DNA from: Paraspadella gotoi
Lineage: Eukaryota; Animalia; Chaetognatha
Assembly: GCA_051294375.1 (NCBI GenBank)
Contig: CM119271.1
Coordinates: forward strand, 4,093,990 to 4,157,989
DNA: 64,000 nucleotides
Reading direction: 5' to 3'
Within the stretch, counting starts at the first letter, position 1, and the number at the start of each line of letters is the position of its first letter. The notes under the pieces are model-generated. The model worked only from the letters and a program-made list of their open reading frames with translations, made no database searches and was not told the DNA's origin. Positions 971 to 35,000 of this stretch are shown here, one piece after another. The position numbers and the translations under genes were made by a program.

Positions 971-1048
<78 letters not shown>

Positions 1049-1165
1049 AAGAAATCGATAGAAGAGAAAACTTTCCGTTCTCAATACGCAATCATGCTTG
1101 TTGATTCCGTTGAAGAGGAAGCAAACATCGGGAAAATAAACAGGGCGGGCGGTACCACATTGTTA

Positions 1166-1209
<44 letters not shown>

Positions 1210-2533
1210 AAAGAAAGAAAGAAAGAAAGAAAAAAAGAAAGAAGAAAGATAATAAAGTGCGCGAAAAAAGAAAGAAAGAAAAAGAAAGATAAAGAGCGCG
1301 AAAAAAAAAAGAAGTTGGATTCGGACTTCCATATCTCCTCATATTAATCAAACAAAAACGAAAGTAACAAAAAAAACAAAAGAAATAGAGGCAACCGGGG
1401 AGCTGTTCTAATATGAACGAAATGATGTTAATAAACCCGAAAAAAAAATAATCCGTTTATAGCGAAATCAATAATTCATCGTCGGGAAGTCAAACAGACG
1501 GTGGGAGGTAGAAGAAGAAAGGAGAGAGATAGAAGGAGAAGAAGTAGAGGAAAGGAGTTTAAGAATGAAGGGAAGAAGAAGAAAAATAGGCGAGGGAGGA
1601 GTAAGAGGAAGTGAAGGAAAGAAGTATGAGAAAAGGAGCTAGTTTAAGAAATAGGAAACAAGAATGTGTTGCGCCGCAGTGACTGACTTATCACGTGTAT
1701 TTCTCGTGACATGAATGACAAGAGCTCGTATATTTATAACATGCACTGCATCAAATTCCGTCTTTTATTCTATTTTAGTTTTAGGATTTCCTGAGGCGGC
1801 GCGAGCCAGTCCCTAGATTGAGGTCTTTTCCTGTCTTAACAAAAAGAGCCAATTCTTGGAAATTATATGCATTTTTAAACGTATGTGGGACAGACCGATA
1901 GACAGACATACCGACCGACGGACCGACGGACGAACGAAATGACTAAAAATGGAAACGAAGGTAATAAGAGAGAAACGAAAGAAAAGGCAGATGAAAACAA
2001 TTGCTAAAGAAAAGAGTTTTGATTTTAAAAAAGAAATGTAACACTAAGGTAGTTTGTCGATTTTTTTCTTACCATTTTTAAATCGATAAAAATGTAAATC
2101 TTCATCGATCACACATAATTTCGGGAAAGTCGATCCGCACAGCCGACCCTACACCAGACAGACATCATCAACAAATCAACAAAAGAGCAACGGGATGACC
2201 ATTAGGCATCAGGCGGTGAAGCTCTCCTACGAAGAATGGCGCGTTGAAGCCTCAATGACGTCCGAAGCCGACGATTTGCTTGCTCTTCACACAACGAGTT
2301 GCAGGGGTGGAGAAAAGAAAGGGGGAAGTGGATGAGAGGGAGAGGGATAAAAACAAATAATGGGTAAGATGAAAAGGAGACATGACAGGAAAAAAAGAAG
2401 GTTGAAAAAAAAAGTGGGAAAACAGTTAAGATGGATAAAAAAATATATCCGAGAAAGGAGAAAAGTTGTGACAAAAAAAAAAACGGACAAAATGGAGAGA
2501 CTGGAAAATGGGGTCACTGTGATCGAAAAGTGA
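1..2533 (+). repeat. About 2.5-kb block duplicated at 9763-12292 (composite of repeats and microsatellites)
   Basis: Colinear near-identity from aaaaataatctatcatgagc to gatcgaaaagtgag; differences are mostly 1-bp indels. Confidence 0.9.
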
Positions 2534-3133
2534 GAGAGAGAGAGAGAGAAACGCCCCCAGCATTCATGGTTTATGCAGAGTCTTGGAGGTTTCATGACTA
2601 CGGAATGAAGCACCGTCGCGTCGACGACGACGACGACGACGACGACAATGACAACGACGAATTTACCGAGTGGCTTTTTTTTCTCTCTTGGCGCCAAGAA
2701 TCATCGGCGGTGGGCGTGTCTCTTCGACGGCGGCGGTGGCGGCGATGAGGAAGTTGGTCTCGTGGGTCCGTCGTCAGAAGTGGCATCAAGTGGCGGTCGA
2801 TGGAATTCGGAAGTCATATGGAGAGAATAGAGAATTGGCGGGGCTGAGGTTAGAGAGACAGAGACAGAGACAGATCTGTTTTTCTTTTTTTTTGTTCCTG
2901 TGTCGGCGCTTACGTCGCCAACGGTCGCAACGCCCGTTGAACTTTCTCGTGTCTAATAGTTTGATTTTTTAACAAATATCAAGGGAAAATAAACATACAA
3001 TATGAAATAATAATGTTTTGCTAAAAATTTGGCATGAAAATCATACACATTTATTCTCAAAAAAAAAAAAAAATCAAACCCGGTGATTCCCGAGTGTAAT
3101 CGAAAAATAAAAGTGTTTTGCTGATGATAACAA

Positions 3134-6964: not shown

Positions 6965-7402
6965 AATAGAACTTTCGCGACGACAATCGTTTCTCTCTAA
7001 CTCTCTCTGTCTCTCTCTCTCTCTCTGTCTCACTTATGTCACCCTCACATTTTTTTTTCCAAATTTAATTTTTATCGCGATACAAAGACAAGAAAATATA
7101 AAAAAGTCAATAAAAAAAGACGAAACTAATAAAAAAAAACCCAAAAAATAAGAATAACGAGATCGGAATCCATTATTTATATACAAAATCGTCGCGATAA
7201 TATAAAATTTTTATATATATTCTCCATTTCTAAATCGACAAAAAAAAAAACAAACTCTCCAACGGAAAAAAAAAAGCTTTTAGCAAGAGTTAAAAAGTAA
7301 ACAAGAATCGAGATTAATTCAAAAAATAAACTATTTTTAAAAAAATACCCGTTCTTGACGATAATAACGAATGATAAACAAACAAACATCAACGTAAACA
7401 AA

Positions 7403-10400
7403 ATGATATCGCCGTTCGGACTTTTTTTCGTTTGTTTATTGACGACGAATTTGGTTCCGTCCATCGTCGCCGAAGATCCCACGGTTGCGGCAACCGAAGC
7501 AACCGATTCTGCATCTGTACCAACGACGGATGCAGGTACAGATGCAGCGACAGATTCACTAACGGATGCATCAACTGTAGCAGTGACCGATGCTGCTACA
7601 GATTCGACAACAGACGCAGTAACCGAAGTTACGACGGCTGCGGCAACAGAAGCAGTAACCGAAGTTACGACGGCTGCGGCAACAGAAGCAGCTACGGATG
7701 CAGCAACAGAGGAGACGACGGCGGCGCCGACATCTGCGGCAACAGATGCGGCGACAAACGCGACAGATGCCGTCACGGAAGAAAACAACGCGACGTCGAC
7801 GACGCCGAACGTTACCGAGGCCGAGACGACGCAGCCGCCGCCGACTACAGCGCCGACGACAGCGACGCAGCCGCCGCGGCGCCGCATCGTCCTCACCATG
7901 ACGCTGACCATCGCCGACGTTTCGAAGGTCGAGTGCGAGAAGGTGAAGGCGAAGTTTGACGAGGGCGACCCAACGACGACGATGGCGACGACGACGATGG
8001 CGACGACGACGATGGCGACGACGACGATGGCGACGACAGACGATGGCGACGACGACGATGGCGGCCGTGGACGACGACGAAGGATGGCGACGACGACATA
8101 GGGCGTCTGCAACATCAGAGGTTGCGACGCGGGACGGAGCAGCGACGACGGCAGCTGCCTCCCCAGCGTCAGACGCCTCCCCGCCGGCCGTCACCACCTC
8201 AGCGCGAAGGCGTCGGGAAGCGGGGCAGGAGGCGGAGGCGTCGACGGCGGCAGCGGAGAAGGCGGTGAACGAGAAGACGTTCCTCGAAGACGCGACGAAG
8301 GCGTGGACGAAATTCGTAGAGGACGCTGGCGGCGTCAACGCGACCGCCAAAATAACTGCGGTTAGTCAGAGGAGGAGGGGGAGGAGGGGGAGGAGGAGGA
8401 GGAGGAGGAGGAGGAGGAGGAGGGGGAGAGGAAAGAGGAGGTTGAAGGCAAGTATTCCGTCAGAATAAAAGCCTTCCCCCTGGCGGGTGGCTAGGGTCGA
8501 CGCCGGGAGGTTATACCTAAGGATAGCCTCTGGGGGTGAGCAAAACCTATATACCTAGGTGTGTCCCCAAGGGGGATAGTTTCTTTAGCATTTAGGGGCA
8601 GACCTATGGCAGATCCCTTTGGGGTACAAAAAATTGCCTTCGACAGGGGTAACCCCTAAGTATAAAAAAACCTTCTTAAATGAAGCCAAGCTTTCTTAAT
8701 CAAGTAAGTTTTATTGTTCCCACAAAGAATTAGCATTGGGAGTGTCCTTGTAAAAGTCAAAAATTTATTCACCAAGGGTTAGCCCCTAGGAGTCACCCCT
8801 TAGTATATTGCATTAATGGCGCTCTTAAATGATTAAAAATTTTTTCCCCTTGGGATAGACTGCCCCAGGGGGCAGCCTCTTCTATCGTCCCAAGGGGAAG
8901 GCTTTTTGAGCGACGGTATATCTCGTTGAAGGCGGAGGTGTATTGCATTGGACGTTGCGGATTCAAGGATGAGATTGGTATATAAAACTGGAATAAAAAA
9001 GTACAAATATTTAACAAATACTAAATATTGAGAACGAGAATTTAACAAGAAGCAAATTTTAAAATTCAGCATGAAAGTTTTAAATTTGATAACTGTGATT
9101 AATGATAAATGATTATGACGAATATTTTGATGATGATGATGATGATGATGATGTTGCTGATGATGATGATGATGTTGCTGATGATGACTAAGATTTTTAT
9201 AATGATGATGATGATAATAATAATCTTGATACTTTCAATCAATAATCTCCCCCTCGATGCCTACCCCCGAATCCGATCTCTCCAACCCCCGAACCCCCAC
9301 AGGTGTACTGCGGGTCGATCTCCCTCGACCTCACCGTCGCCGCCAGCTCCCCGTCCGAAGAGGCCCTCAAGGATGGCATGGAGGCCAAAGCGGACGAGGG
9401 CCTCGACATCCAAGGCTTCGAAGTCTTGCCGAGGGAGATCAAGGCTGGAGTCAAGTGGGCAAGGCCGAAGGTGAGGTTTCATTTAGTTGTTGTTGTTGTT
9501 GTTGTTTTGTACATAAAAACTGGAGAATTAGGCCGATGGTAATGTCAATCATCATCATTACTATGGTGTGGTTGTAACTTTGTTGGAAGTGGTTTTATGT
9601 ACAATGAAAATGATACGATTAAAACAATGAGAAAAACATTGATAGGGAAGCCAGGTACTCTGGGAGTGAATAAACAAGACTGTGAGAGAGCCTTGATTGA
9701 AAACTTGCCGGGAACAGCTATAAGAGCCTTAAACTAGCCATAGCCGATGAAATTTAAATACTAAAAATAATCTATCATGAGCATAGATTATAGTATTAAA
9801 ATATTTTTTGTCAAAAATGCTTTCTTCTGATGGTACTAGCCTAATTACTATATAGAGAATTTTTTTTTAGTCTTTTAATTTTTTGATGGATTCTGATAGC
9901 GCATAAAAAGTTAAACGAGAAATATAATTACAGCTTTCAAAAATTCTTACATTTTCTCTGTAAAAATTTAAAAAAACTGATAAAATCATCGAAAGATGAT
10001 GATGATGATAATTTTTTCCGTTTTTTCTTATTTTTTACCTACTTATCATAATTATATTTAAAAAAGAATTATACTTAATATAGACAACTTTATTATGAAT
10101 CTGGTCTTAAAATTTACAATTTTCCTCCAAAAATTTGGCCTTTCCCATCTATAAATAAATATTTAAAAATTAATTACTAGGGTATAGAGCCATATAAAAT
10201 TTTTTTGACTACTCCCATTGAGTGCAGCTCCCCCTACTTAAACCATCAAAGCCTGTCCAAAGTAAGGGCAAGATAGCTTATTTATTAAATGAAAGGATAA
10301 TTTTTATATTGGTTGTACCAACCGAAGAAGGTGGAGAAGAGTCTCCGTAAATTCTACGGAACGGGTACTTGTCTTGGAACAAGGCTTTGGGGTCGCTCCG

Positions 10401-10710
10401 GCTTACGGCTGGCCTCCCTCTCATCTAGGACAACCAATTAGTATTTTCTTTTAAATCAATCTTTTAAAAGAAAAGTTTGCGAAACGTCTTTGAACTTACC
10501 CACAACCAACGTCAGTTTTATTTTTTGTCCCTGATGTTAAATGTTAAGTCTTAAGATAATTCATATTTTCTCGCGTCAAGAGTTTTTTTTCTTTACGGGA
10601 TCGATTTTTGCTTTTTCTCAAACAACAAAGAATCATTGAAAAAAACTCAGGCTAACGCATTTTTTTTTCCTCGTTTCTACCTCTGTTTCGTTTTTTTTTC
10701 CCCCTTGAAC

Positions 10711-10761
<51 letters not shown>

Positions 10762-10877
10762 AATCGATAGAAGAGAAAACCTTTCCGTTCTCAAATACGC
10801 AATCATGCTTGGTTGATTCCGTTGAAGAGGAGCAAACATCGGGAAAATAACACAGGGCGGCGGTACCATCATTGTGA

Positions 10878-10975
<98 letters not shown>

Positions 10976-13900
10976 AAGTGCGCGAAAAAAAGAAAGAAAG
11001 AAAGAAAGATAAAGAGCGCGAAAAAAAAAGAAGGTTGGATTCGGACTTCCATATCTCCTCATATTAATCAAACAAAAACGAAAGTTAACAAAAAAAACAA
11101 AAGAAATAGAGAGCAAACCGGGGAAGCTGTTCTAATATGAACGAGAATGATGTTAATAAACCCGAAAAAAAAAATAATCCGTTTATAGCGAAATCAATAA
11201 TTCATCGTCGGGAGAGTCAAACAAGACGGTGGGAGGTAGAAGAAGAAAGGAGAGAGATAGAAGGAGAAGAAGTAGAGGAAAGGAGTTTAAGAAGAAGGAA
11301 GAAGAAGAAAAATAGGCGAGGGAAGGAGTAAAGAGGAAGTGAAGGAAAGAAGTATGAGAAAAGGAGGATAGTATTAAAGAAGGTAGGAAACAAGAATGTG
11401 TTGCGCCGCAGTGACTGACTTATCACGTGTATTTCTCGTGACATGACATGACAAGAGCTCGTGTATTTATAACATGCACTGCATCAAAATTCCGTCTTTT
11501 ATTCTATTTTAGTTTTAGGATTTCCTGAAGGCGGCGCGAGCAGTCCCTTAGATTCGAGGTCTTTTCCTGTCTTAACAAAAGAGCAATTCTTGGGAAATTA
11601 TATGCATTTTTAACGTATGTGGGACAGACCGATAGACAGACATACCGACCGACGGACCGACGGACCGAACGAAAAGTGACTAAAAAATGGAAACGAAGGT
11701 AATAAGAGAGAAACGAAAAAGAAAAGGCAGATGAAAGACAATTGCTAAAGAAAAGAGTTTTGATTTAAAAAAAGAAATGTAAACACTAAGGTAGTTTGTC
11801 CGATTTTTTTTTCTTCCATTTTTAAATCGATAAAAATGTAAAATCTTCATCGATCCACACATAATTTCGGGAAAGTCGATCCGCACAGCCGACCCTACAC
11901 CAGACAGACATGCAATCAACAATCAACAAAAGAGCAACGGATGACCATTAGGGCATCAGGCGGTGAAGCTCTCCTAACGAAGAATGGCGCGTTGAAGCCT
12001 CAATGACGTCCGAAGCCGACGATTTGCTTGCTTCTTCACAAGCAAACGAGTTGCAGGGGTGGAGAAGAGAAAGGGGGAGAGTGGAGTGAGAGGGAGAGGG
12101 ATAAAAACAAATAATGGGGTAATGAGAAAAGGAGACATGACAGGATAAAAAAGAAGGTTGAAAAAAAAAGTGGGAAAACAGTTAAGATGGATAAAAAAAA
12201 TATATCCGAGAAAGGAGAAAAAGTTGTGACAAAAAAAAACGGACAAAAATGGAGAGACTGGAAAATGGGGGTCACTGTGATCGAAAAGTGAGTATGGGGA
12301 GCTGATTATCATAAGGAAACGAAAAGAACGGATCGCTATATGTAGTCGGGCATTGCCTAGGTTCACCTCGCCTATAAGCATGACACTTTCAATTTTAACC
12401 CGGTGGCTCATTGGGAAGCGTGAGAACGGCCGTAAGCCACCTTGGGGGTGTGGTAAACCCTCAAGCCTGGTTCCAAGCTCAGGACCCGTTCCATGGCTGC
12501 TAGAGGGGGTTATAGAAGTTACGGATAGTCATCTTCAGCCCACTTAGCGCCTTATCCACATATATCTACGACAACATTGGGTACAGCCACAAAGCAGTCA
12601 AGATTGGAGCGGAAATGTTAAAGAAACGAAAAGAGGGAGGACTGGGATTTTCGAGCGGACGAGATGTTCATTTGTCATTTCGGCGGACAAAAGAAAAATG
12701 AATCTCGTCGGCGTCGTTAGAGGGACAGAGAGGGACTTTTTTGACCAATCCCCTTTTTTTTTTCTTTGTCGAGAAAAAAAAATTGAACAGCGGGAAGAAA
12801 GATTGAAGATACTGGAATATGGACGTCGACGATGACGGCGACGATGACAGAGACGTCGGTGACAGAGGCCACTTCTGACACAGAGTGACAGCGACTGTCG
12901 GGGACTGATACGAGACGACGCGCGAAATGCGTGAAACTTGTCTTTGACGTTGACGTCAACGAGAGAGACAGAGACGAAAAAAAAAATATAGTGTCTGGAA
13001 TCTGGATGGAGGAAAGGAGAGAAAGACGATCAAAAAGGAACGAATTACTTAATCTCGTAGGGTAGCTTAAAATGAACTTGACTTAATGACTATATCAGAC
13101 CCTAAAAGTAACCAAAACTAACCATATATATTGCGAACTCGTTTTACACCTTAATTTTAATTTCCTCTCATTGAAATGTCGATTTATTGACAATTAAGAT
13201 TTTTATTTATCTTTCCAAATCCTGTTGATTATTTTCCCAGGATGAGGGCGATAAAAAGCCGAGGGAGATTTTAACCAACAATCCGGGACTCACCGAGGGC
13301 TCGATAGCAGGTAATACAGTATGATTTTTTTCAATTGTAACATTTCCTGTAGCGATATCTCAGAGTCCCTTCACCCTAGGTACTTAAATTATGGCTCATT
13401 TTACAGCCTGCTGTCTGGCATTTTTAGATCGATCAATTTTTACATTATTCTAATAACTTCTAGTCCCCAATGAACTCGTCAAATTTGTCAATCAACTTTT
13501 GATTTGTTTACCTTTTAATGTTTCACGTTGTCACAAGTTACTCACAACCAATCAAAACTTATTTAAATTTATATTCTAATATTTATATTCTAATATTTAT
13601 TCTTTAAAACTTGGTACAGGTTTTGTTTTCGTGCATTGAACAATAATATGACTAATGCTTTACAACATATTTTACATATTTTAGCTCTCAGTAGTATTTT
13701 GATATTTGAATTCACTTAAATTATATTTCATTTTAAAGAGGAGAAAAAATGCTACATGTTCTTTACCTCATATTTTTTTTGCTTTCATTTTAAGTACATT
13801 TTAAAAAAAAATTGGAAAATTGTATCGATGAAGTTTCAAATTTGACCTCCTCTTAATAGACGGTCACTAAATAAAGAAGACTCATTACAAATATGTTGAA

Positions 13901-14670
13901 TTATATATCATATAAAATGCCAGACCGAGACCTTCATCATTAATCTTTTTAAATTTTATGGTTGCATAGATATACTGTCACGAAATGTTACAAACGAGAA
14001 AAATCATACTGTAGTCGGGAATAACGATCTTTTACGAATCGATTTAACGAATTACATTACGAAGATTGGATGGAAACGCGAAACTGATCGAAGTTCGAGA
14101 AAATCGTTTCGAGATAAGTGGTCGTTAGAAAGCGAACTTTACTGTACTTGCGGTCACAAAAGAGGTCCATTCATTCTAGTCGCCATTGTCCTCTGCCAGA
14201 AGAATCGTTAATGAACGTCCGTTCCCTTTTTTATGTTCCTTTTTTTCTATTTTTTTTTTTCTTCACTTTTTGTTGAGATTTTTTTTATTTATTTTCTTCC
14301 TTTCTCTTTTTTTTTTTTTTTGCTAACTTTCTTTGTCTCTCACATCTCTAACATGTTCATCATTTAGTTTTTATATTTTTTTCTTTTTTTCCTTTTTTCG
14401 CTAATCGCAAATCAAATTTACCGCGTATACTATTTTAAGTAATACATAGCTCACATCCTCTTTGTCTCTCTTCTCTTTCTCACTCTTCTTTCCCCTCCTC
14501 CTCTTCCACCTTTCTCCAATCCCTACGCGCCGCCTCCAGCCATCGTGATCGGCGTCCTCGCTCTCTTCTTCATCATCGGCGCCGTCTATTTTTCCCTCAA
14601 AAAGGGTCACCGGAAGACGGCGCAGATCACGTCCACGTCGAGGATGAAGCTCAGCGACGTCGCCGAGTAG
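7403..14670 (+). CDS. Type I transmembrane mucin-like protein (signal peptide, Thr/Ala-rich O-glycosylation region, SEA-like module, single TM helix, short cytoplasmic tail); 4 exons
   Basis: Exons 7403-8360 (ATG; MISPFGLFFVCLLTTNLVPSIVAED signal-like; T/A/D/E-rich repeats; donor GTTAGT, phase 0), 9303-9470 (VYCGSISLDLTV...KWARPK; donor GTGAGG), 13241-13310 (DEGDKK...PGLTEGSIA, phase 1, donor GTAATA), 14540-14670 (AIVIGVLALFFIIGAVYFSLKKGHRK...SDVAE*). Phases join correctly. One net frameshift inside the (ACG/ATG)n MATTT repeat near 8035-8100 is needed to join ORF 7355..8101 to ORF 7956..8468. Confidence 0.8.
9763..12292 (+). repeat. Second copy of the 1-2533 block, inside intron 2 of the mucin gene
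   Basis: Same sequence order, including (GA)n, (GAAA)n and the gacagaccgatagacagac element. Confidence 0.9.
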
Positions 14671-18425: not shown

Positions 18426-21400
18426 ATGTCAAATTTTTACAAAACGGTCCGAGGAGCATGGAGCAGTGCCAATATCGACGAGGCGGAAAACGAGGTAGAT
18501 TTCGGCAAAGATAAAGTAAGGTTTTGATCCTTTATTTCCGCGAACTCGCTTATTTTTATATATTATATTATTATATATAATAATAATAATAATATATGAC
18601 AGGAGTTCGGGACGCCCGAGCCGTCGCCTCCTCCGTCGGTATCTTCGCCACCAACGCGGTCACGGAGCCCGTCACCCAAAGCGCCCTGCGCGCCGAAGTC
18701 CGAGAGCCCCGCCCTGGCCGCGTCTATTGATACCTGGGTCCGCCCGCTCATCGAAATTGTTGACAAACTGCGGAGTCTCGGGATCGAGAAACACGAGTTA
18801 GTAATTAGTTACGAATTTGATGAATAATAATTGTTTGAAAATTAAAACAGAATAACGGGTAAAAGGTATAGTTAAATTTTGACTATTTTTTTTGCATAAT
18901 GAAAGCAATTTAAGCTAGTATCGTAATTGAGCCAAATTTAACGTATTTTTCAGTATTGCCTTGCCCCGAATCGTCATTACCGGTGATCAAAGTTCGGGCA
19001 AGTCTACCGTCGTCGAAGCTCTGTCGGGCATCGCCCTGCCGAGAGGGATGGGCATGGTGACGCGGGCGCCGCTGGAACTCAGGTCGGATCTGAGGAAACG
19101 TGGGCCGAGAGTGATCCAAAATAGTTACCCTTTTTTACGTTTTAATTTAATTTAATAATGGACACTGGACAGTACTTTCAATAATAATTAAACTTAAGCA
19201 ACATTTTAACGATAGAATGATAAAGATGGACTGCGAGTGGTCGGCTAAACTCTCCTACCGTTTGAACGAAGAAGATATCACCTTCAACATCCTCGATCCG
19301 AAAGATGTCGGCCAAAAGGTAATTTTTTGCCATCAATTTGTTCAGCATCCTTATTGTACATCGCTTTTTTCAATTTTTGTAAGTCACCTTTCAAGTACCA
19401 AAAATGTTATTAGTGCCTCAGTAACAGTTCAGTTTCAAGCCCTTGGAAAGCGATTTAAATGTATTGGCGCAGCCACTGGTTTAAAAAAATATTTGTTACA
19501 CAGCTTTGTAGTCCCAAGATATTTTGCTAGTTTATTTCGTTCGAATAAGATTCTGGATGCGCAAAATGAATTGACGAGCGAGGAGTCCTGCGTATCCGAA
19601 AAAGAGCTCAAGCTGGAGGTTCGCGCCCCGAACGTGCCCGATTTGACCGTGGTCGACCTGCCCGGCATCGTGAGGACCGTCGCTGAGGGGCAAGAGCTCG
19701 ACATCGAGGAAAAGATCAAGAATTTAATCAGGAAGTAAGTCGAATCTTTAAATTACGAAAGTTAAAAAAATTTGTACAATCTGTATAAGAATTATTCCAT
19801 AAACAAGCTATCTTTGCACAGGCTATGGCTTTGGCAATAAATGGTGATTAATAATTGGTTANNNNNNNNNNTATGCCTATGGCTTTAGAAATAAATGGTG
19901 ATTAATAATTGGTTATTAGTAAGTTATTGTTTTCTGTCGCGTAAAATTTACTTTTTTTTTTTGGAATTACAGATACATCGAAGCTCCTAACACGATCGAT
20001 TTGGTTGTTTGTCCTGCCAATGTAGACCCGGCCGTTAACGAAGCGATCAAACTCGCCAAAGATGTGCGTCGATTTTCTAAGATGTTACATAAAAAAAAGA
20101 AAAAAAAGAAAAACTTGAAAAATGATACTTTCCCCTCGGCCTAGGTTGATCCCACTTTCGAAAGAACTCTTGCAGTAGTGACAAAGCCGGATCTCGTGGA
20201 CAAAGGAGCGGAGAATTCTGTCGTTGATCTGGTCAACAACAAGTCACCGGTATTGACACTGAAGAGACAGTAAGAATTGTTATGAGTTAGTGACAAAACA
20301 GTTCGATATGAGCAGTCCCTGAGCTTCGGATCAGACTGTAACACCGTGTTACACTTACAGGCGGGTTAAGCGCCTCGGCTCTCTGAACTGTTAGGTAACC
20401 ACCGGACTAGAACTCTGGACCTTCGGGTTGGGAGGCGAATGACTTGCCTCCTGCACCAATGGCCGCTTGGTGGATTTTAGTCCTCCATAACAAGATTATT
20501 TCTAGTATACACACCTACTTGCCTTACTTTTTTACTTAACCAGGTCAAACTTGCCGGTTCGAGCAGTTGGACGATGATTAAAGGAAGGTCGCAGGCCGAT
20601 TTGGATAAAGGGATCTCGTTGGCACAAGCAACAGCCCAGGAGGTGAGTGAAGAGTTAGTTGCGTCACACAATCTGTTTTAAATTATAATTAAGATCGGCT
20701 TATAACGTTTTCAGGCAAGTTTCTTTACGAAACACAAGCAATACAGTCGAATTGAGGAAACGAAACTCGGGGTCAACAATTTGGCCACCAAATTAACATG
20801 GATTTTGGTGAACAAAATCAAAGACGAGCTGCCCATTTGTCGCCAACAGGTAGTTGTCTAAAAATACACGGATTTCAATTGTGAGTGAAATGAAAAGATA
20901 ATTATAGCGACTTAAATTTTGAACCCTGGGTAAAAAAAATTGCCAACGTTTTTTTTTTTTTACAGTAGTACAGCTTGCTTAGTTTCTTAGTTATTTTCTA
21001 ATTAACTAGATAGTTGAAAGTTGAAAAAATTATGCAAATTGAAAAAATTATGCAAGTTAAAAAAATTTTGAACCCTGGTATAAAAAATTGCTAACGTTTT
21101 TTTTATTTTTTAACTCCCAGTAGTACAGCTTGCTTAGTTTCTTAGTTATTTTCTCATTAACACCATGGTCGAATTTCAAAAAAAGAAATTTTTTGTATTT
21201 GAATAGCATCATTCTGTTGTAGGATATACTTAAATGAAAAAAATAAAATATTAAAAAATTTGGGTTTATCTTACAAATTTAGACATTAAAGTATGTCTCT
21301 GAGCAATCAGAATTTTCAAAAACTTTTTCACTGCCACAATGACAGCCCTTTCCATTTGTTAGTTTTTTCTATTTTTTTCTAGTTAAAATAAAAATTTCAG

Positions 21401-24400
21401 CTTTGGAAAAAAAATGGAAAAGAACATTTATCACTAAACCTTGTAATTAAATAATCAAATAAGAGGGGAAAAGTTGTGCAAAAAAAGCTGCTGGAAAGCA
21501 AGCGCACCAGTTGTTATATATATATATATTTTCATACAATTAAAACATTCTTTGAAATATACCACTTCATTGATAGGGAATCCAGGTACTCTGGGAGTGA
21601 ATAAACGAGACTGTTAGGGAGTCGTGATTGAAAGCTTGCTGGGAGCTGCTATATCATTATCTTGTAAGAGTGATGGAGGCCTTAAACCATCAACGCCTGT
21701 CCAAAGTCAGGGGCAAGATAGCTTGTTTATTAAATGAATTTTTATATTGGTTGTACCAATTTAATAGGAACATAAACGTCAGGGAATTTTCTAACTAATG
21801 AAATGATCAAATATCAATCATATTGAGTTAGTTAACAGGAATATTTATTTAACAAAGCTTTTCATTTCACTGAACGTAGTGTTTTCTTAATTTGATTTCT
21901 AAATATAATCGAATTTATCTTCTTTTGCAGATAATGGACAGGTTGAATTCGTTGACGACCCAGTTGGAGAAGTTCGGGGAATATCCTTGCAACCTCGAAG
22001 ATGTGAACGCGATGATGTTTTATTTCACAAAAACGACGAGAACTTTTGCCAATCATCTTATCTCCCGATGCTTAGGTCATTTTAAAACGGATTTTTACCA
22101 AGCTTTTGAAATCATAATAGGCTTAAAACTTAAATAATAACCAATGGATATTGTTAATTCAATCCAGGCGAAAGTCAGCGCCGTCCGGAAGGTTGCGAGC
22201 TACTGCGCCAGGCGAGACGCCTGGAAGAGACATTCGCCCAAGGCATCGACGACGCTCGACCGGAAGAAGAGGAGCTGATGATTGAGATTTTGGAGAACAT
22301 GAAAAAATTTCGAGGGAGCGAACTACTTCCCTACATCAGCTTCGACGTCTTTATATTCTCCGCGAAGAAGCTGGTCGCGCAGTTCAAGGAGCCCATCGAT
22401 AAGTGTCTCGGCAAGGTGACGCTTTTTAAATTTTACTAAGTTCACTTAACCACTTTTGTTCAATACTAATATTAATAATTAGGTCCGAGATTTGATTTTA
22501 AAAGATTTGGCCAACCTCGCTCAAGAGGAGCTCAGCAGTTTTCCCGCGCTGAGAGAAAAAGTCCAAGAGATCATCACTTTTTGCTGCGACGAGGCTTATA
22601 AAGAGTGCAAAACAGACTTGGACAAATATATGAAGAAGGAAATGATACCATACGCCAATGTACGTGCTTAACATTATGCTGAAGCGATGATAAAATCGGG
22701 AATATATTTTCGAAAGGAAAAATCGGCATGAAACAATCGAGATCTTGAACGAACTAAAACTCGAAACTTCGCAGAGGGCGAAGAGAGAGAAAAACAAATA
22801 ATCACTGCAATGCTATGGTACTACTGCGTTACAAATTTTCAGTTATATTAATTAGTTATCTATTGATATAATAGGACAATCTTTTCGTACGTGAGATGGA
22901 AACCTGCGCCGAGGACGACAAAAATGTAGAAGACGAAGCGGTTTCTGATTCTCGATTAGACGGATTTTCCGTTGGTCAATGTAGAGGTAAGACTAAGGTT
23001 GTCTGAGAATCGCCAAGAGTGGTCACTCAAGAAAAACAAAAATCCCACCCCTTTCACTCAAGGAAAACCTAAGAGCAGATTTCATCGAAGATTCATTAGG
23101 AGAACGTTTAAAGTTCTTCCTAGTGGTAAGACTAGGATCATCTGGGAATCGAAAGAGTGGTCACTCAAGAACAAGAATGGTAATTCCAATATGTTGCGCC
23201 GCAGTGACTTTATTTTTTTGTGTATTTCCCTTTGATCATATGATATGACATGACATAATTAAAAAAATTTTTCGCCCATGTATTTATGACATGCACTGCA
23301 TCAAAATTCCATCTTTTAGCAGTCCCTTAGATTTGAGGTTTTTTTCTGTCTTAACAAATGAGCAACCAACTATAGGCAAATTATTTGCATTTTTAACATA
23401 AGTGGGACAGACCAATGGACAGACATACCGACCGAACGACCGACCAAAAAGTGACTTGCGGCGCAACAAAAAACAAAATTCCCACTCCTCCAGGAAAATT
23501 TGAGAGCATGTGGCGAGGCTACTTTGCAGATCCACTGGCCAATCGTTTTGGCCGAAGATTCTTGCCGTGACCTCTCTCTCTCTCACCCTCCCTCTTTCCC
23601 TTTCTGCCCAGTTATATGTTATACCTCTATTCTTGTGTCTGAAAAGGTCTGAATTTTTGCTCTTTTCTAATAAAACCTTTACTCATGTTAGAAATCTACT
23701 ATGAAATTAAATTCAATTGGGGCGGGGGTTCAAAACTATATATTGAAGTAAAAAAAATTTTTTAAAAAAGTTCCATTTTAATACTTTTATTGTTGCTATC
23801 AAAATTAAAATATTACTATATAATGATAAATTTTTTTTTAATCAATCTTAACTTTTTTTGATGGATTCTGATAAAGCATAAAAAGTTAAATAAAAAATAT
23901 AACTACAACTTTCAAAAATTTTGATGTTTTTTTGGTCAAAATTAAGAAAAAGTAATAAAATTATTGAAAGATGATGATGATTATAAATAGTTTTTCATAT
24001 GTTTCACCCACTTATGATCAAAATATCGAAAAAAGAATTATACTTTGTGTAGACAACTTTTTGCAAGCTACCTGAATCTTATCTTAAAAATAAAAAAATC
24101 CTAAAAATTGTTTTAGCCTTTCCTATTTATAAATAAATATTAAAAAAATATATTGAGTATGGAGTATTATTAATTTTTTTGTCTATTCACATTTTTTTAA
24201 AAATGTCTAAATTTTCGTTTGAGCAGGTGTTTAATTCAAATTTCTTCACCACCTTACTGAGTTAGGCTCTCCTTAAGGCGGGCCAAAATTTAACATTTTT
24301 TACAATATGAAAAAGTCTGCAATAAAAGTTTTTTGTCCTTTTACAACCAAATTGATTTATGATATTAGATTTTGATTAAATTAATTTTCCTCATGCATGG

Positions 24401-25508
24401 AAGCATTTTAATATTTAACAATATATATGAAATCCTTCAAAAATTTTTAAAAATAGATTCTGATAAAGATTAAAAAGTTAGATAATGGTTAGTACTACAA
24501 ATTTCAAAAATTTTAATGAAATGGGCTAAAATTTGAAAAACTTTAAAAAATCATCATCATCATCATTCATTAAATTTTATAGTTTTTATTAATTTTCATA
24601 AATAAAAAACATTATTATTAATAACCTTCATCTAACTTTTCAAGCACTATCCGATTCCGTTAAAAAAAATTAAAATTTATTAAAAATTTTTTTTCACATT
24701 ATATATTCGTATCGTAGTAATCGGATAATATAAAATAGCTTCCATGCGTTTAGCTATGAAATAAATCTTAATTTTTTAGATTTTCACGATCCTTAATAAA
24801 CACATTAACAATATTTATACCGGACTTCTGTTAGTTTGTAAACTGTTCCGCCTTACTATTCATGTTGCCATCAATATTTTCAGTTTCTTCTATCCAACAC
24901 GGAACTATTCCCATCGCGGTACTACCTGCACCTGTCTCTCCTTCTCAAAGATCCATCAGGACAAAGTTCAAGGTTCTTTCGCCAGACTTGAACCAGTGGC
25001 GGATCCACGAGGCCGGACAGCACTATAAAAATATCATGACCTACTACAAAATGGCCAAAAGACGCCTCATGGAATACGTTCCAATGGAGATCAACTACAC
25101 GATGTTGATTTGTTTGAGCGAAAACATCGATCAAAAAGTTAGTTTTTCTCGTCAAATGTAAAATTGTTTAATGTGTTTTTATTATTATTGTAAGGAGATG
25201 GTGTTATAAACTCCAAATAAGTTATATCCTCTGCAAATAGTATTTTGTTATCATCTAAAAAAGTAAACAAACTAGATGCCGTAACTACTGTAATAAAATC
25301 AACAAACACGCAGGTAATGGCGATGGCAATTTCCGCGGATCCTGCGGAGCGTCGGTCGCTGATGTGCGCTCCCAAACTGGACGCGTATCGCACCAAGCTG
25401 ATGAAGATGATAGCCAATCTGAAGAATTGCCTGCAAGAGTTGAATCGCCTCCTCAACGACAAGATGCTGACCAACCTCAGCTTCGAGGAGTTGAGAATTG
25501 AAGATTGA
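18426..25508 (+). CDS. Mx: Mx-like dynamin-superfamily large GTPase (paralog A), about 753 aa from 15 core exons (774 aa if the 63-nt exon at 23063-23125 is included)
   Basis: Exons 18426-18515, 18603-18796, 18954-19082, 19216-19318, 19550-19734, 19973-20063, 20145-20249, 20544-20642, 20715-20849, 21931-22075, 22168-22415, 22483-22659, 22875-22986, 24884-25137, 25314-25508; all GT-AG and phase-consistent, total 2262 nt. Motifs: [15 protein letters not shown] (Mx BSE helix), G1 [19 protein letters not shown]3 DLPG, G4 TKPDLVDKG, stalk FRGSEL, GED-like [17 protein letters not shown]. No PH or proline-rich C-terminal domain. The first exon and start codon are the least certain part. Confidence 0.92.
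20260..20488 (-). mobile_element. tRNA-derived SINE-like element, family A
   Basis: tRNA-like head gcggccattggtgcaggaggcaagtcattcgcctcccaacccgaaggtccagagttctagtccggtggtt with A-box and B-box-like motifs; homologous to 26398-26621 and 26931-27133. Confidence 0.7.
21535..21762 (+). repeat. Dispersed ~230-bp repeat family C (gatagggaa.ccaggtactctggg...gcctgtccaaagtcaggggcaagatagc...ttggttgtaccaa)
   Basis: Copies or fragments also at ~460-570, 9636-9740 plus 10215-10321, 30150-30260 and 61716-61950. Confidence 0.8.
23063..23125 (+). CDS. Candidate 63-nt symmetric (phase 1-1) exon in the L4-equivalent loop of Mx-A, encoding [21 protein letters not shown]
   Basis: Pyrimidine-rich acceptor cccacccctttcactcaAG, donor GTAAGA, 76-nt upstream intron (similar to the gene's other short introns), open frame in register with both flanking exons. 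Confidence 0.6.
23170..23468 (+). mobile_element. Helentron-associated (HINE/DINE-1-like) non-autonomous element
   Basis: Starts aacaag; subterminal inverted repeat tgttgcgccgca / tgcggcgcaaca; (GACA/GACC)n microsatellite. Related copies at ~1657-1945 and ~11388-11682. It interrupts an otherwise alignable duplicated intron. Confidence 0.55.
23494..23570 (+). CDS. Candidate alternative terminal (or 51-nt cassette) exon of Mx-A: [25 protein letters not shown]
   Basis: Acceptor cccactcctccAG at 23492-23493, phase-1 frame open to TGA at 23568-23570, AATAAA at 23669-23674. Sequence resembles the 23063 exon and its upstream intron. Confidence 0.35.
24276..24852. mobile_element. MITE-like element (AGGCGG...CCGCCT), same family as 16980-17804
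   Basis: Short terminal inverted repeats, TA-flanked, shared 3' end sequence. Confidence 0.45.
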
Positions 25509-25686
25509 GATAAAACTGAAAAGCCAAACGTTGGAGCCACTTCTCTTAGATGTTAGTTTTACTGTTTCTTATTCACGTTCTTTTATCACCCTGTTTTATC
25601 TACTTCGTTAGGTAAATGGATTTTTCATCCATTAATTCACGTTTAGTTTTAAAAAAGTTACAAATTTCGTGTTTTTTTTTTTCTTA

Positions 25687-25692
25687 AATAAA
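25687..25692 (+). terminator. Polyadenylation signal AATAAA of Mx-A
   Basis: AATAAA about 180 nt downstream of the stop at 25508. Confidence 0.55.
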
Positions 25693-26002
25693 AGCGTTTT
25701 TCGTTCCAACTTCTGATAATGTCTTGTAAAGAAGTGCTAGCGATAGCTTTTGTCAAGAAAATTCCTTCAGTACAACGGAGAAGTGTACTTCGTTTCACAA
25801 GATAAATCATTCGGGTATTTGTAAACGATGGAAAAACGGAAGTGGGAACAATATATCAATCACCGAATGACAAACATTGTGGAATGGCCATGCAACAAAC
25901 CTACAGAGCTAATTACAAATCTAATCGGTTCCTACGAATGAAAACTATATATAGAACTCGAAATATCGGTTAATTCTGTAACCCAACCAGCTCTTTCCGG
26001 CG

Positions 26003-29000
26003 TCATAATGAAACGGATACGCCCGTCGACCATCCATCGAGCTGCTTCCGGCAATTTTCCATTTCCCGGATCTTCTCGCGAAGTTTTTCTCTCTCTGCGC
26101 CGATTCGAGGGTCCTCGCTCATCGACCGGATTTCCTCGTCGCTGGCCGTCGACGTAATGGACGTCACCTGCGGAAAATTGGGTAGGGAGACGCTGAATTG
26201 AGGACCGAGTGGTTTGATTTTGGGGACGTTGCTTGAATTTGAAAATAGATGAGCAGAGTTTCCATTTAACGTTAAAACGGTGGGGAATGTTATCCTGGAT
26301 AAAACCCTATCTCGAGTCTGATTATGGCCAACACCAACATTAAGCTTATATTATACATTTATAACTCCAAAATCTGTGCCTTGTTACGTAGAAATTGAAA
26401 AATCCATCAACCATTCATCAGCGGCCATTGGTGCCGAAGGCAAGTCATTCGCCTCCCAAACCAAAGGTCCAGGGTTCTAGCCCGGTGGTCGCCTAGCAGT
26501 TTAGAGGGACGGGGCGCTTAACCCGCCTGTAACATGGTGTTACAGCCTGATCCGAAGCTCAGGGACTGCTTATATTGAACGGTTCTGTCACTAATACATA
26601 TCAATAATTACTGTCTCTTCATTGGTGAGCCCGACTTCCAAACACAACAGCAACAACAACACTTTCAGGCAACATGACTCAACCTGGCGATGCACTTTCC
26701 GCCATCAACACATCAGGCGACATGCCTCAACTTGGTGATGAACTTTCCACCAACACAACAATTCACTGAAGAGACGCAACAGACTTCTCCCTACGGGAGG
26801 GGGGCACAGACCATCAGTTTCACATCCGACCACGGAAAAATTCCTACCACCTCCGTTACCCTTCCTACCGAGTACACGACCATCAGTTCACATCCGACCA
26901 CGGAAAATTCTACCACCTCCGTTACCCTGTATGGTGGACTAAAATCCACCAACCATTCATCAGCGGCCATTGGTGTGGAGGCAAGTCATTCACCTCCCAA
27001 CCCAAAGGTCCGGGGTTCTAGCCTGGTGGTCGTCTGGCAGTTAAGAGGGACGGGGCGCTTAACCCGACTGAAACATGGTGCTTATATTGAACGGTTCTGT
27101 CACTAACACATTTCAATAATTACTGTCTCTTCACTCACCTGATTTTGCACGTTAAAGCTGAGCTTACGCAACATGATGTACAGAATCTTCATGGGTACGA
27201 TCTCCATCATGCGGCGCGAGGACACTCTGAAGTAGGCCTTGATGTTGAGGAGGTGCTTTCGCGCCTCGTTGCGGCACCAAATGTCGGAATCGGGCGACAA
27301 CACCTCGACCTTCGCCAGGGTGAGGCCGGTCGAATCCGGCGTGGGGTTGCTCTCGGGATCAGCGGGCATTCTGAGAACTCCGGCCACCATTTGAACTTCT
27401 TGGTCGTAGATGTTATCCTGCATGACGATGATTGCATAAGATTTTGAAAATCGCAAAATTATTGTAACTCTATATTTTTAAAAATTTTATAAAGTTCAAA
27501 TAATTTTGAATAAATATTGAATAATTTAAGTTTACTTCATATTTTTGTATAATGGGGAAAGGGATGTTACTGTTAGTGCTGTTATTTGGAAATAGAAGGA
27601 ACATCTACACGAAACAACGTTAAAAATATTTTCTGCCCTAGCCTAGGTTTCTAATTAGATATATTGTGGCGGTATATTCACACCGCCTCACGTTCACCCG
27701 GCTGTTGCCATAANNNNNNNNNNCTGTTGCCATAATATCACAACGTTCTTGTTAGAAAGTCATTTAAATTCAAACAAGTTTGAGCAAACAATGTCTGATC
27801 TGCCCACGATCATTAGCGGTAATTAATTAATTAATTCAATTAATTAATTTAATCCTAAATGTTTGTTTTTAGGTGTTTTCGTCACTGAATACGACAAAAG
27901 CAACGAAGATGATGATGACAATAATGCCGATAACGATTCACTTACTTGATTATCGTAATAAGAGGTTTCGATATAATAGTAATGATTTACCGACAAAATT
28001 TTGGGGTGGGACCGACAAAGTGGAGGAATCGGAATCTGCTGATAAGCAGATCCGACTAAAAACAAGTTTGAGCAAACAAGGTCGAATCTGCCCACGATCA
28101 TTATCGGTAATTAATTAATTAATAATTAATTTATTTAAGTTAATTATTTCATTAATTAGGTAATTAATTAATTTGATCCAAAATGTTTGTTTTGATTGAT
28201 TGACTGATTAATTAATTATTGATTAATTACTTGATTAATTAACTGATGAATTATTTGATTAATTAATACATCTTGCATTTACATTTAAAATAAAAAGAAA
28301 AAGAAGCATAATCAATTAGTGAAACAAGTTCTTTGTTTTTTCCATTTAAACTCATTTCCACTCAAACGATTCCATTGAAACTTGATTTCCAGTTAATCAC
28401 ACACTTTTCTACCCAAATACAAAATTTCAAGTCAATCGCCCCATCCATTCATGAGTAATTGGTGTTCAAATAGTGAAATAGATTTTTTTGTTTTTTCCAT
28501 TTAAACTCATTTCCACTCGGACGATTCTATCGAAACTTCATATCCAGCTCAATCACACACTTCCCTACCGACACACAAAATTTTATTCCAATCCATCCAT
28601 CCAAGCACGATTAATTGGTATTTTTTGCTAAGGTGGGACAGACGGACAGACAGACGGACATAGTTTTTTTGGTACTTTTTTTCAAAGAAGCCCCCTTGCT
28701 GCGGCTCCTAAAGCAGCAGACTCAAACACGCACAAAAATTGTATTTTTCTGCTTCCGTCGTCGTTTTATGCGTCACTCCTTTTGTCGTCGCTCTCATCGT
28801 CGCAACTGTTTCCTCCATCGTTCAAATTATCGTCGTCGTTTCTGTCGATCCCGATCCTGACGGAAGCTTAATTCTTTCTCTCGCTGAGACCCAGCAAGCC
28901 AGAATTTTATTGTTGCAAAAGTAGCATAGGAAAAAATAACCCTAATCCCTAACCATAATCCCACCCCTAATCCCTAATATCTATCCCCTAAACTAACCTT

Positions 29001-32000: not shown

Positions 32001-35000
32001 TTGCGGATTAATTTATCTCCCATCTGCTCAAGGCTGACTTTTTAAGCGATTCAAATTTCGTAATTTTCATAAATAGCTTTCATAAGCGACGAGCCTTAAC
32101 TTCCCAAAAGCGACAAGAGAATGTTACGCTCTTTAATAAAGCCCTGTGGCAGTACGACTTAAAGCTGCCTCGTCTCAATGGTTAAATCATCTCGTTTCAA
32201 CCGTGCGTCCCGGGTTCAATCCCTTGGATATCCCAGTCACTGAGAAGCCGCTGCTCCAACGCCGGTTGGTGGGATACCCAGCGCCCCGGGTATGTCAGTC
32301 AATCCTCCTTAGCCCTTTCCTTACAACAGACGAGAATCCGCTGCTCCAACGCCGGTTGGTGGGATACCCAGCGCCCCGGGTATGTCAGTCAATCCTCCCT
32401 TAGCCCTTTCCTTACAACAGACGCTGATCCCATTTATTAAAATTCTTATTTCCCAACACCAACAGATGACAGAAAAGTGCTTACCTCCCGTCGGCTGCGG
32501 ATGATCGGCGGTGTCGGGTCGTTTCTCATCGATCTTTCTGGCGAGCTCGTCGAACATCCGTCGGGTTTTCATGAGCAGTTTAACGGAATTAGAGAAACGA
32601 TGGTAGTCGCCTGTTATTTAAGAATGTTATAACCTACGTAGTACCAACTGTCCCTGACCGATTTAATAAAAGCAAAAACCAATACATCAAATACTCTTGA
32701 GCAAACTTCGTAAACTAGCCTAATCCAATTTTACAGTTTAGACTTACCCAAATTTTTAGACACTCCCGACAAACACTTACCCAGACACTCTGACCTCAAC
32801 CTATCGCAGAACGAGTTGAGGACTTTAACAAAGTAGATCTTGAGTTCGTTAACGTTATCTGGCGGACCTTCGCCAAGATCGAGCAGTTCGTCGTTGAGAT
32901 GTTGGATAGTATCGTTGAGCTGAAGGGAAATGTGGAGGTCGTGACGTAATAAGGCCGTTTTCTGGTCTGTCAGTCTCTCTGTCGATTTGTCTACTCAATA
33001 AAAATTTTAAATCTAAAAAATTAAAATGTCCTAATATTAATATTTCTGATTTGTTTTCACAGTAGTATGCCTGATATTGGGAAAAAATATTGGTACAATA
33101 TTTTAGCGATGTATATTGAAAGTCGATATCATTTTTGTGGTAGTTAACAATAAATAACGAAAATTTTATTTTTTTAAAATTTATTTCTTTTTTTTTCTTT
33201 TTTACTCGTCTCGAATTAAATCACAAAGCCCCAACCTGTTCCCTCAGACCAGGAAGAGAGGTTTTGATCTTTCCAATCAAAGATTTCGTTAACTTCGTCG
33301 CCAAATTTTTAAGTCCTCGTTTGTTCTTGGCGACGTGACGATAATGTTTGTGAGAATCAAAATACTGGGTCTGGGAAAGAAAAAGCGTTTTTGATTCATT
33401 ACAAGATGTCAAAGTTACAAGGCGGTTAAATCACGAATACGATACTTTTCTTATAACATTTTCCATGATTCTACAATCTACAGCATCGTAAAAGTTACCT
33501 CTTGAAGGACGGCCTGTTCCAAGAGCATTCCCTCGTTTATGTCTTCTTGGGATCGACACTTGATCATGATCCAGGGAGAAGATCCGGACAATTTGATCTG
33601 GAAAACGGGGTCGGGGTGCAATTGGAAAGATAATCGCAAATCGGATGACGATAAGTAGGCTGGGTATCAGTTTATAAAGCTGTGCAAACTAAGCTACACG
33701 GACTATTTTGGGGTCTTCGCGAGGTCGCCCCTCTTCCGCGCAGGATCCACTGTTGTAAACGCGAGAGAGATAAATAGGCTGAAGAGTAAGGCGTAGTGAA
33801 AGTTACATACGAAAATTCTAAAAGTCAATTATGAACAACATACCATCAGTGAACATTAATTTATAAAAAAAATTAATTTTATGTTTTTTTAATTTTCGCA
33901 GTAGGCTATATTTTTATACTGTACTATATATATTTTTTTAAATTTTTAACCCACTTAACGAAATAATTTTTAAAAATGATTTATATTTTCTTTTAACAAC
34001 TTTTGACGAGGAATTCAAATCTGCAATCAAAATTTAAAACTTTTTCGATTTTATAAGGATAGTACTGTATATAAATATAGCCGACTGCGAAAATTAAAAA
34101 GGTTCCATTGGGATTCCTCCCAACAGGATTCCTCCCACGCGGGATTCCTCCCACGCGGGATTCCTCCCCAAGGGATTCCTCCCAATGGAATTGCTCCCAC
34201 ACGGGATTCCTCCCAAAAGAATTCCTCCCACACGGGATTCCTCCCAAAGGAATTCCTCCCACGCGGGATTCCTCCCACACGGGTTTCCTCCCCACAGAAT
34301 TCCTCCCCATGGAATTCCTCCCAAGCGGGATTCCTCCCACGCGGGATTCCTCCCATGCGAATTCCTCCCACGTGGGATTCCTCCCACACGAGATTCCTCC
34401 TACACGGAATTCCTCCCACACGAGATTCCTCCCATGCGGGATTCCTCCCACGCGGGATTCCTCCCACGCGGGATTCTTCCCACGCGGGATTCCTCCCACA
34501 CGGGATTCCTCCCACGCGGGATTCCTCCCATGCGGGATTCCTCCCATGCGGGATTCCTCCCGTGCGGGATTCCTCCCACGGGGGATTCCTCCCACGGGGG
34601 ATTCCTCCCATGCGGGATTCCTCCCACGCGGGATTCCTCCCGCACGGGATTCCTCACAGGCGGGATTCCTCCCACGCGGGATTCCTCCCGTACGGGATTC
34701 CTCACAGGCGGGATTCCTCCCACGCGGTATTCCTCCCACACGGGATTAAAATGAGTCGGGATCTGTTGAAAAAGCAGATCTCGAGACTTAATATATCTAC
34801 TGAAAGGAACCAAAAGCGAGGAAAATAGGGGTGGAAAGTGGAAATAAATTTGTTTAGGAAAAAATACAAGGCTTTATGCCGTGATTTGCATATTAATTAT
34901 AGGATAAACGATGTGATATAAAAGTAATTAAAAATGAAAACGAAATTATTAAAAATATTTTAAAAGCACAAGTTTTTTATAATATAACGAGTAATTATTT

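What the first reader, a model, noticed from the sequence alone, without database searches (positions are those of the whole stretch)
22875..23570. L4 specificity loop of Mx-A built by tandem intron+exon duplication, with a symmetric basic cassette exon
Seen: the donor and intron start gtaagact..gaatcg..aagagtggtcactcaaga occurs at 22987 and again at 23126. Each copy is followed by aaaaacaaaa(a/t)tcccac...AG|GAAAA (23063 and 23494; the second intron copy is split by a HINE insertion). The first unit gives an in-frame 63-nt phase 1-1 exon, [21 protein letters not shown], which also echoes downstream [13 protein letters not shown]. Established: in human MxA, loop L4 is the main determinant of viral target specificity, evolves under positive selection and carries a basic lipid-binding patch. 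Inference: this gene may switch L4 length and charge (about 67 vs 88 aa) by alternative splicing, giving several specificities from one locus.
Basis: partly seen in the sequence, partly recalled or inferred. Interest (0 to 1): 0.85.

Follow-up and report, generated by a model that had tools for sequence, protein, structure and literature searches.

The report
Skipped duplicate exon in Mx gene
An intron in the likely target-recognition loop of an invertebrate Mx-type gene holds a real tandem duplication with an intact-looking 63-base exon, but the one available transcript assembly splices that exon out, so it is likely a dormant leftover rather than a specificity switch.

Summary
The duplication is real. 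Two 88%-identical copies of a donor-to-acceptor unit start at 22987 and 23126; a HINE-like element splits the second. Genomic reads confirm the sequence at single-copy depth. The segment 23063-23125 is an open, phase 1-1, +8-charge candidate exon inside the loop-L4 position of an Mx-clade GTPase. Its 3' half copies part of the next exon in frame.

The switch is not supported. The only RNA run holds one spliced 3,225-nt contig (depth 191) that joins 22986 directly to 24884, and nothing covers the 63-mer. The second copy has lost frame and donor. The expressed protein is the 752-aa skip form, whose already long, acidic L4 does not come from the duplicated unit.

Contigs hide minor isoforms, and this is one library of unknown tissue and state, so rare or inducible inclusion stays open (about 25%). 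Constitutive inclusion and assembly artefact are rejected.

The parts
18426..25508 (+). Gene A, Mx-clade dynamin-like GTPase; 15 exons in the expressed model (752 aa), 773 aa if the 63-nt segment were included
   Evidence: Both models open. X9 contig pieces match exons 9-12, 15, 16; a loose end confirms exon 5>6. Best PDB hits are Mx
22875..22986 (+). Exon 13: end of stalk helix 3 and acidic 5' half of loop L4; expressed
   Evidence: 112 record letters lie between exon 12 and 24884 in the X9 contig, exactly the exon length; bin depths match
22987..24883 (+). The L4 intron as actually spliced (1,897 nt, phase 1); paralog B has no intron here
   Evidence: Skip junction in X9 record 25; B exon 27417-27139 is continuous
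22982..23062 (+). Duplicated unit, copy 1: last exon bases, used donor at 22987, 76-nt would-be intron, AAG acceptor
   Evidence: acceptor ranks 7th of 29 scored sites, and 3 of 176 decoy AGs score as high
23063..23125 (+). Candidate 63-nt phase 1-1 exon (basic, +8); skipped in the observed transcript; 3' half is an in-frame copy of part of exon 15
23121..23169 (+). Duplicated unit, copy 2, 5' part, with donor at 23126
   Evidence: 37 of 45 columns identical to copy 1; donor score mid-range, 6.6 vs 10.0 for 22987
23170..23467 (.). HINE-like non-autonomous rolling-circle element (298 nt) inserted in the A-run of copy 2
   Evidence: Inverted subterminal repeats at 23193 and ending 23467, shared left end with copies at 1668 and 11400; depth in the thousands
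23468..23493 (+). Duplicated unit, copy 2, 3' part, with CAG acceptor
23494..23570 (+). Decayed second exon copy: in-frame stop after 25 codons; the only phase-1 GT before it (23545) scores lowest of all donors
   Evidence: an unspliced X9 contig 23397-23716 at depth 4.25 crosses its acceptor
24884..25137 (+). Exon 15: 3' half of L4 and stalk helix 4 (GED); about 24945-24978 is the stretch echoed by the 63-mer
   Evidence: Pfam GED E=0.043 as a single exon; alignment to P0001; expressed

Best explanation
A local tandem duplication inside the loop-L4 intron of an Mx-clade GTPase gene left two donor-plus-acceptor units; the second is broken, and the first frames a 63-base in-frame segment that the observed mRNA skips, so it is likely a dormant pseudo-exon included rarely or never. 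Shown: the duplication, the element insertion, the loss of frame and donor in copy 2, and splicing from 22986 straight to 24884 in the one RNA assembly. Inferred: the duplicated block carried the exon-13 donor, the following intron bases and a piece of L4 coding sequence related to exon 15. This accounts for the exon-like look (copied splice sites, in-frame echo) without selection for a switch. Inferred: the strong first donor pairs with the distal acceptor while the 76-nt unit is not recognised as an intron (43% GC against 21-34% for 13 of the other 14 model introns). The working protein is likely the 752-aa form with a long, net acidic L4.
For: X9 record 25 has exactly 112 letters between exon 12 and 24884 (exon 13 alone; inclusion needs 175). 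The two bases laid on 24882-24883 match the end of exon 13, not of the 63-mer. The skip model reproduces 7 of 7 bin depths; inclusion predicts 82.3 where 33.7 is seen; residual depth on the 63-mer is at most 0.32 against 190.8. The contig is unbroken at both would-be branch points. The sister copy has decayed. Paralog B has a single L4 exon. The expressed L4 is already the longest of 34 anchored sequences (93; others 31-89), so the 114 form would be a further outlier. The synonymous excess against exon 15 is not significant (3 synonymous, 4 replacement, p=0.21).
Against: One RNA run, contigs only, tissue and state unknown. Logan contigs are simplified and report pieces over 150 bp; an inclusion path would be about 123 nt and could be removed. 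From memory of Minia defaults, untested here, paths under about a quarter of neighbouring depth can be cut. Both splice sites are intact and score like real ones. The segment kept frame and has no stop while its sister copy did not. The pS 0.39 vs pN 0.16 trend leans towards constraint. The first lay of X9 (85% likeness) showed no exon cover at all, so the tool's output depends on settings.
Confidence: 0.65

Rival explanations
1. The 63-mer is a true minor, tissue-specific or infection-induced cassette exon. Inclusion lengthens L4 by 21 aa and moves its net charge from -3 to +5, which would change membrane or target binding and give mixed oligomers from one gene.
For: Symmetric, stop-free, canonical sites; acceptor 7th of 29 with 3 of 176 decoys as good; donor mid-range. 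Survived while copy 2 decayed. The skip form is shown, which a cassette needs. Mixed-L4 MxA oligomers broaden restriction (PMC12047444, passages). Virus-induced MxA exon skipping exists (PMC8306335, passages).
Against: No inclusion sequence in the only RNA run, although an intronic contig at depth 4.25 was kept. A random duplicate is in frame one time in three. No significant coding constraint. No close relative was found to show conservation.
Confidence: 0.25
2. The duplicated sites serve unproductive splicing: use of the 23494 acceptor, or retention of the 76-nt unit, gives a premature stop and would lower Mx output by nonsense-mediated decay.
For: Both routes end in a stop. The 23494 acceptor scores 8.3, like real ones. 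The only unique intronic X9 contig seen in this intron lies over 23397-23716.
Against: That contig is unspliced across 23494 and at 2% of mRNA depth, as expected of pre-mRNA or DNA carry-over. No joint to 23494 was listed (tables were cut).
Confidence: 0.06
3. The exon is always included: a constitutive L4 expansion.
For: Open 773-aa model.
Against: The observed high-depth transcript skips it.
Confidence: 0.02
4. The repeat is an assembly artefact or a dispersed transposon fragment.
For: Other parts of the window hold noisy, frameshifted duplicates.
Against: Copies are 12% diverged. Six DNA runs reproduce the stretch at single-copy depth, three of them also at 85% likeness. No other copy in the window.
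Confidence: 0.02

Closest known systems
Human MxA/MxB (PDB 3szr, 3zys, 5uot) and invertebrate Mx proteins (PMC11789081, passages read)
   Same: GTPase domain, stalk and GED without a PH domain; best PDB hit for 4 of 4 GTPase exons tested; variable loop at the L4 position.
   Different: 33-37% identity to the best full-length relatives. Genes A and B form their own pair outside the vertebrate-like clade. L4 is about twice MxA's length, net acidic and split by an intron that B lacks. Antiviral activity and induction are untested.
varMxA, the HSV-1-induced human MxA isoform lacking exons 14-16, and MxA exon-exclusion isoforms in dengue infection (review PMC8306335, passages); bovine MX1-a/MX1B splice variants (PMC4768776, search listing only)
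   Same: Alternative splicing of an Mx gene in or near the stalk is known.
   Different: Those are deletions or other variants of existing exons; here the candidate is an added in-frame module inside L4, and only the skip form is seen.
Tandem exon duplication with one silent or rarely used copy (general class; search listing only: PMC2592719, PMC5224494)
   Same: Local duplication copies splice sites and coding sequence; new exons are commonly minor or silent (the last point is my recall).
   Different: The unit is donor + short intron + part of an exon, and the second copy is broken, so it is not a mutually exclusive pair.
HINE / DINE-1-like non-autonomous Helentrons (PMC4067079, passages)
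   Same: Subterminal inverted repeats, microsatellite, insertion in a T/A run, very high copy number.
   Different: The 3' palindrome is weak here and no autonomous partner was looked for.

Membership tests
Mx clade of dynamin superfamily | Dynamin-type GTPase domain with G1, G3 and G4 motifs | tested here: met
   Pfam Dynamin_N above cutoff on exons 3 and 5; motifs present in the model
Mx clade of dynamin superfamily | Middle domain and GED | tested here: met
   Single exons give Dynamin_M E=0.0016 and 0.0034 and GED E=0.043, all below cutoff; the skip model aligns to Mx-like P0001 over residues 64-678, E=2e-95, and P0001 scores 675 bits against MxA
Mx clade of dynamin superfamily | No PH domain; a variable loop between stalk helices 3 and 4 | tested here: met
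   Anchors align with P0001 and MxA Y532/Y584; no PH hit on exon 15 or the 22960-23232 frame; exon 13 was not scanned alone; no structure was predicted
Mx clade of dynamin superfamily | Groups with Mx, not dynamin/Drp1/Vps1/OPA1 | tested here: met
   FastTree on 48 rows (5 long-branch rows dropped, unnamed sequences): A+B on the Mx side of a 96-support split; the 53-row quick tree was unresolved. PDB best hits Mx for 4 of 4 exons; margin narrow for exon 5 (37.8 vs 37.0 bits)
Mx clade of dynamin superfamily | Antiviral activity and immune induction | not testable with these tools
   No functional or challenge data
MxA ortholog | Falls within the vertebrate Mx clade | tested here: not met
   A and B are sisters (support 100) outside the 23-row clade holding P0001
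Alternatively spliced cassette exon | Multiple of three, same phase both sides, no stop | tested here: met
   63 nt, phase 1-1, open
Alternatively spliced cassette exon | Usable acceptor and donor | tested here: met
   Rough matrices from 27 acceptors and 26 donors of genes A and B: acceptor 7th of 29, donor mid-range; the matrix also ranks several used acceptors low, so it is weak
Alternatively spliced cassette exon | Both inclusion and skip forms present in RNA | tested here: inconclusive
   Skip seen, inclusion not seen, 1 of 1 RNA run, contigs only
Alternatively spliced cassette exon | Conserved, with coding constraint | tested here: inconclusive
   3 synonymous vs 4 replacement changes against exon 15, p=0.21; no close relative found
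Mutually exclusive duplicated exon pair | Two intact homologous exons of equal phase | tested here: not met
   Copy 2 has a stop and no credible phase-1 donor
HINE element | Subterminal inverted repeats, T/A-run target, non-coding, high copy | tested here: met
   against the features in PMC4067079

The most novel reading that the evidence does not exclude
The 63-nt segment is a young, regulated cassette exon that is switched on in some tissue or on infection, so one invertebrate Mx gene makes an acidic and a basic version of its specificity loop and mixes them in one oligomer: splice-encoded L4 diversification, which I did not find in print.
Probability: 0.2. Interest if true: 0.7.

Novelty: new member of a known kind. 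Interest (0 to 1): 0.3.

Why it matters
As it stands, this is a divergent invertebrate Mx pair with the longest L4 among the 34 sequences measured, and a clear snapshot of local duplication reshaping that loop's intron; useful for Mx evolution, but not a new mechanism. If inclusion proves real and regulated, it would matter: L4 sets MxA's virus specificity, and mixed-L4 oligomers widen its breadth (PMC12047444, passages), so splicing would give one gene what otherwise needs two alleles. One RT-PCR decides it.

Tried and rejected
1. No whole genome is held for this window. 2. Run search, kind 'any': no holder on record as RNA; X9 was listed as a guess. The first lay at 85% likeness showed zero X9 depth on all exons; the second, at 98% on a longer stretch, showed the spliced contig. 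I rely because its coordinates and depths reconcile exactly; the conflict is unexplained. 3. Word search with exon 15 found nothing among 15 candidates; with exon 5, two distant hits; the profile search gave no close relative among the best 150 of 1,363 hits. 4. Idea that the 76-nt unit is former coding sequence related to paralog B's L4 or to the start of exon 15: no DNA similarity (p=0.51 and 0.86); the frame of copy 2 before the insertion is ambiguous (69 or 70 nt); Pfam blank; the Atlas was unavailable. Left open. 5. Third-position GC as a decay test: the 63-mer is low (5 of 20, P=0.004), but so are expressed exon 13 (P=0.009) and the L4 part of exon 15 (P=0.016), so it does not discriminate. 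6. Branch-point motif scan: uninformative, 10 of 15 acceptors lack a match. 7. A third copy upstream of 24884: none detected (p=0.53). 8. PDB searches with single stalk exons found no Mx hit. 9. No structure or complex prediction was run for the spliced protein. 10. Literature: 'chaetognath' + 'myxovirus' gave 0 papers; 'MxA' + 'loop L4' + 'alternative splicing' gave 4 listings, none on an L4 cassette by title or abstract start. No supplements were read.

Full report
Gene context. The window holds two convergent dynamin-like GTPase genes. Gene A (+, 18426-25508) gives an open 773-aa model with the 63-nt segment and an open 752-aa model without it. Gene B (-, 53151-26003) gives an open 734-aa model lacking its start. 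Four of four GTPase exons have human Mx as best PDB hit. In a FastTree of 48 GTPase domains, after dropping 5 long-branch rows, A and B are sisters (100) on the Mx side of a 96-support split from dynamin/Drp-type rows; the labels rest on motifs and on P0001, and the 53-row quick tree was unresolved. Mx genes in invertebrates, with frequent duplication and loss, are published (PMC11789081, passages). An earlier unreviewed note of this scan suggests an arrow-worm genome; I did not test this.

Observation. The repeat is as described. The unit runs from the last bases of exon 13 through a GTAAG donor and about 70-76 nt to AG|GAAAA. The copies share 61 of 69 aligned bases, far above shuffles (p<=0.0005). 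A 298-nt HINE-like element sits in the A-run of copy 2. DNA contigs of six runs reproduce the stretch at single-copy depth, so it is neither an assembly error nor a dispersed repeat; three of the six may be, or share a sample with, the source DNA. Copy 1 frames 23063-23125: 63 nt, phase 1-1, no stop, charge +8. Its 3' half matches exon 15 at 27 of 34 nt in frame. Copy 2 runs into a stop after 25 codons and has no credible phase-1 donor.

Position. Through P0001, which scores 675 bits against MxA, the anchors flanking the segment match MxA Y532 and Y584. The Tyr-to-Tyr distance is 52 in MxA, 59 in P0001, 64 in gene B, 93 in the skip form and 114 with the segment. The segment therefore lies in the L4 position. 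The skip form is already the longest of the 34 of 55 aligned sequences that had aromatic residues at both anchors (others 31-89). That L4 is MxA's fast-evolving specificity determinant is stated in PMC12047444 and PMC4687636 (passages); its lipid-binding lysines are my recall.

RNA test. One run, X9, is RNA: record 25 is a 3,225-nt spliced contig at depth 190.8. Between the end of exon 12 and 24884 it has 112 letters, the length of exon 13; inclusion needs 175. The skip model reproduces 7 of 7 bin depths, whereas inclusion predicts 82.3 in the bin where 33.7 is seen, leaving at most 0.32 of depth for the 63-mer. The piece for exon 13 itself was not printed (the table was cut); the junction is deduced from record coordinates and depths. 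A low-depth unspliced contig (4.25) covers 23397-23716. Limits: one library, unknown tissue and state, contigs only; Logan contigs are simplified and favour pieces over 150 bp (bioRxiv 10.1101/2024.07.30.605881, passages), and an inclusion path would be about 123 nt. The earlier lay at 85% likeness showed no X9 exon cover at all; I cannot explain this.

Sequence signs of use. For: acceptor 7th of 29 with 3 of 176 decoys as good, donor mid-range; frame kept while the sister copy decayed; pS 0.39 vs pN 0.16. Against: that trend is not significant (p=0.21); a random duplicate is in frame one time in three; the 76-nt unit is GC-rich unlike most native introns. Low third-position GC does not discriminate, since the expressed L4 exons share it.

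Mechanism. Most likely (0.65) a local duplication copied a donor, intron bases and a piece of L4 coding sequence; copy 2 was then hit by the element and decayed, and copy 1 persists as a dormant in-frame pseudo-exon in a 1,897-nt intron. The order of events is not resolved: no third copy or homology to B's L4 was detected. A minor or inducible cassette (0.25) is the live rival. Unproductive splicing (0.06), constitutive inclusion (0.02) and artefact (0.02) are unlikely.

Novelty. Mx splice variants are known (PMC8306335, passages; PMC4768776, listing); an added L4 cassette did not appear in my searches, and the scan had no note on it. Since only the skip form is seen, I file this as a new member of known kinds (invertebrate Mx; duplicated, skipped exon), interest 0.3, with a 0.2 chance of a regulated switch worth 0.7.

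Noticed in passing
window 22969-22974: Run X7 (sample S6) carries an in-frame 6-nt deletion in expressed exon 13, inside L4 (one contig, depth 12.7 of 12.7). It is the only coding difference listed in that call; possibly L4 length polymorphism.
   Followed up: partly
window 53151-26003 (- strand): Second Mx-clade gene B, sister to A, convergent. Its L4 is one exon (27417-27139); an X9 loose end confirms its exon 11>12 junction.
   Followed up: partly
window 32610-31308 (- strand): Gene B has its own stalk insertion at another place, split by a phase-1 intron that A lacks. Size is 16-70 aa depending on which of five in-frame acceptors is used; no RNA was laid here.
   Followed up: partly
window 25508-26163: The X9 contig runs from gene A's last exon through to gene B's last exons in antisense, so the two 3' ends likely overlap and could pair as double-stranded RNA; a merged contig does not show one transcript.
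   Followed up: no
window 19319-19549: Gene A intron 4 (231 nt) is in frame and stop-free, and B has no intron there. The X9 contig length upstream of exon 9 (1016 vs 993 coding nt) implies it is spliced out.
   Followed up: partly
window 19060-19082 and about 52820-52801: Both genes have alanine in the switch-I motif where most Mx rows have cysteine and dynamins arginine.
   Followed up: no
window 22875-24978: All L4-coding parts of gene A have low third-position GC compared with the rest of the gene, consistent with recent or fast-evolving sequence.
   Followed up: partly
window 48100-48600 and 51000-51700; 700-3000 vs 10500-12500: Frameshifted near-duplicates of gene B's 5' exons and of a repeat-rich block; likely uncorrected assembly duplicates.
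   Followed up: no
window 7301-14670 (+): Likely gene for a Thr/Ala-rich mucin-like single-pass membrane protein upstream of gene A.
   Followed up: no
window 34100-34750 and 44000-45700: Short-unit tandem arrays of one family, flanking duplicated sequence.
   Followed up: no
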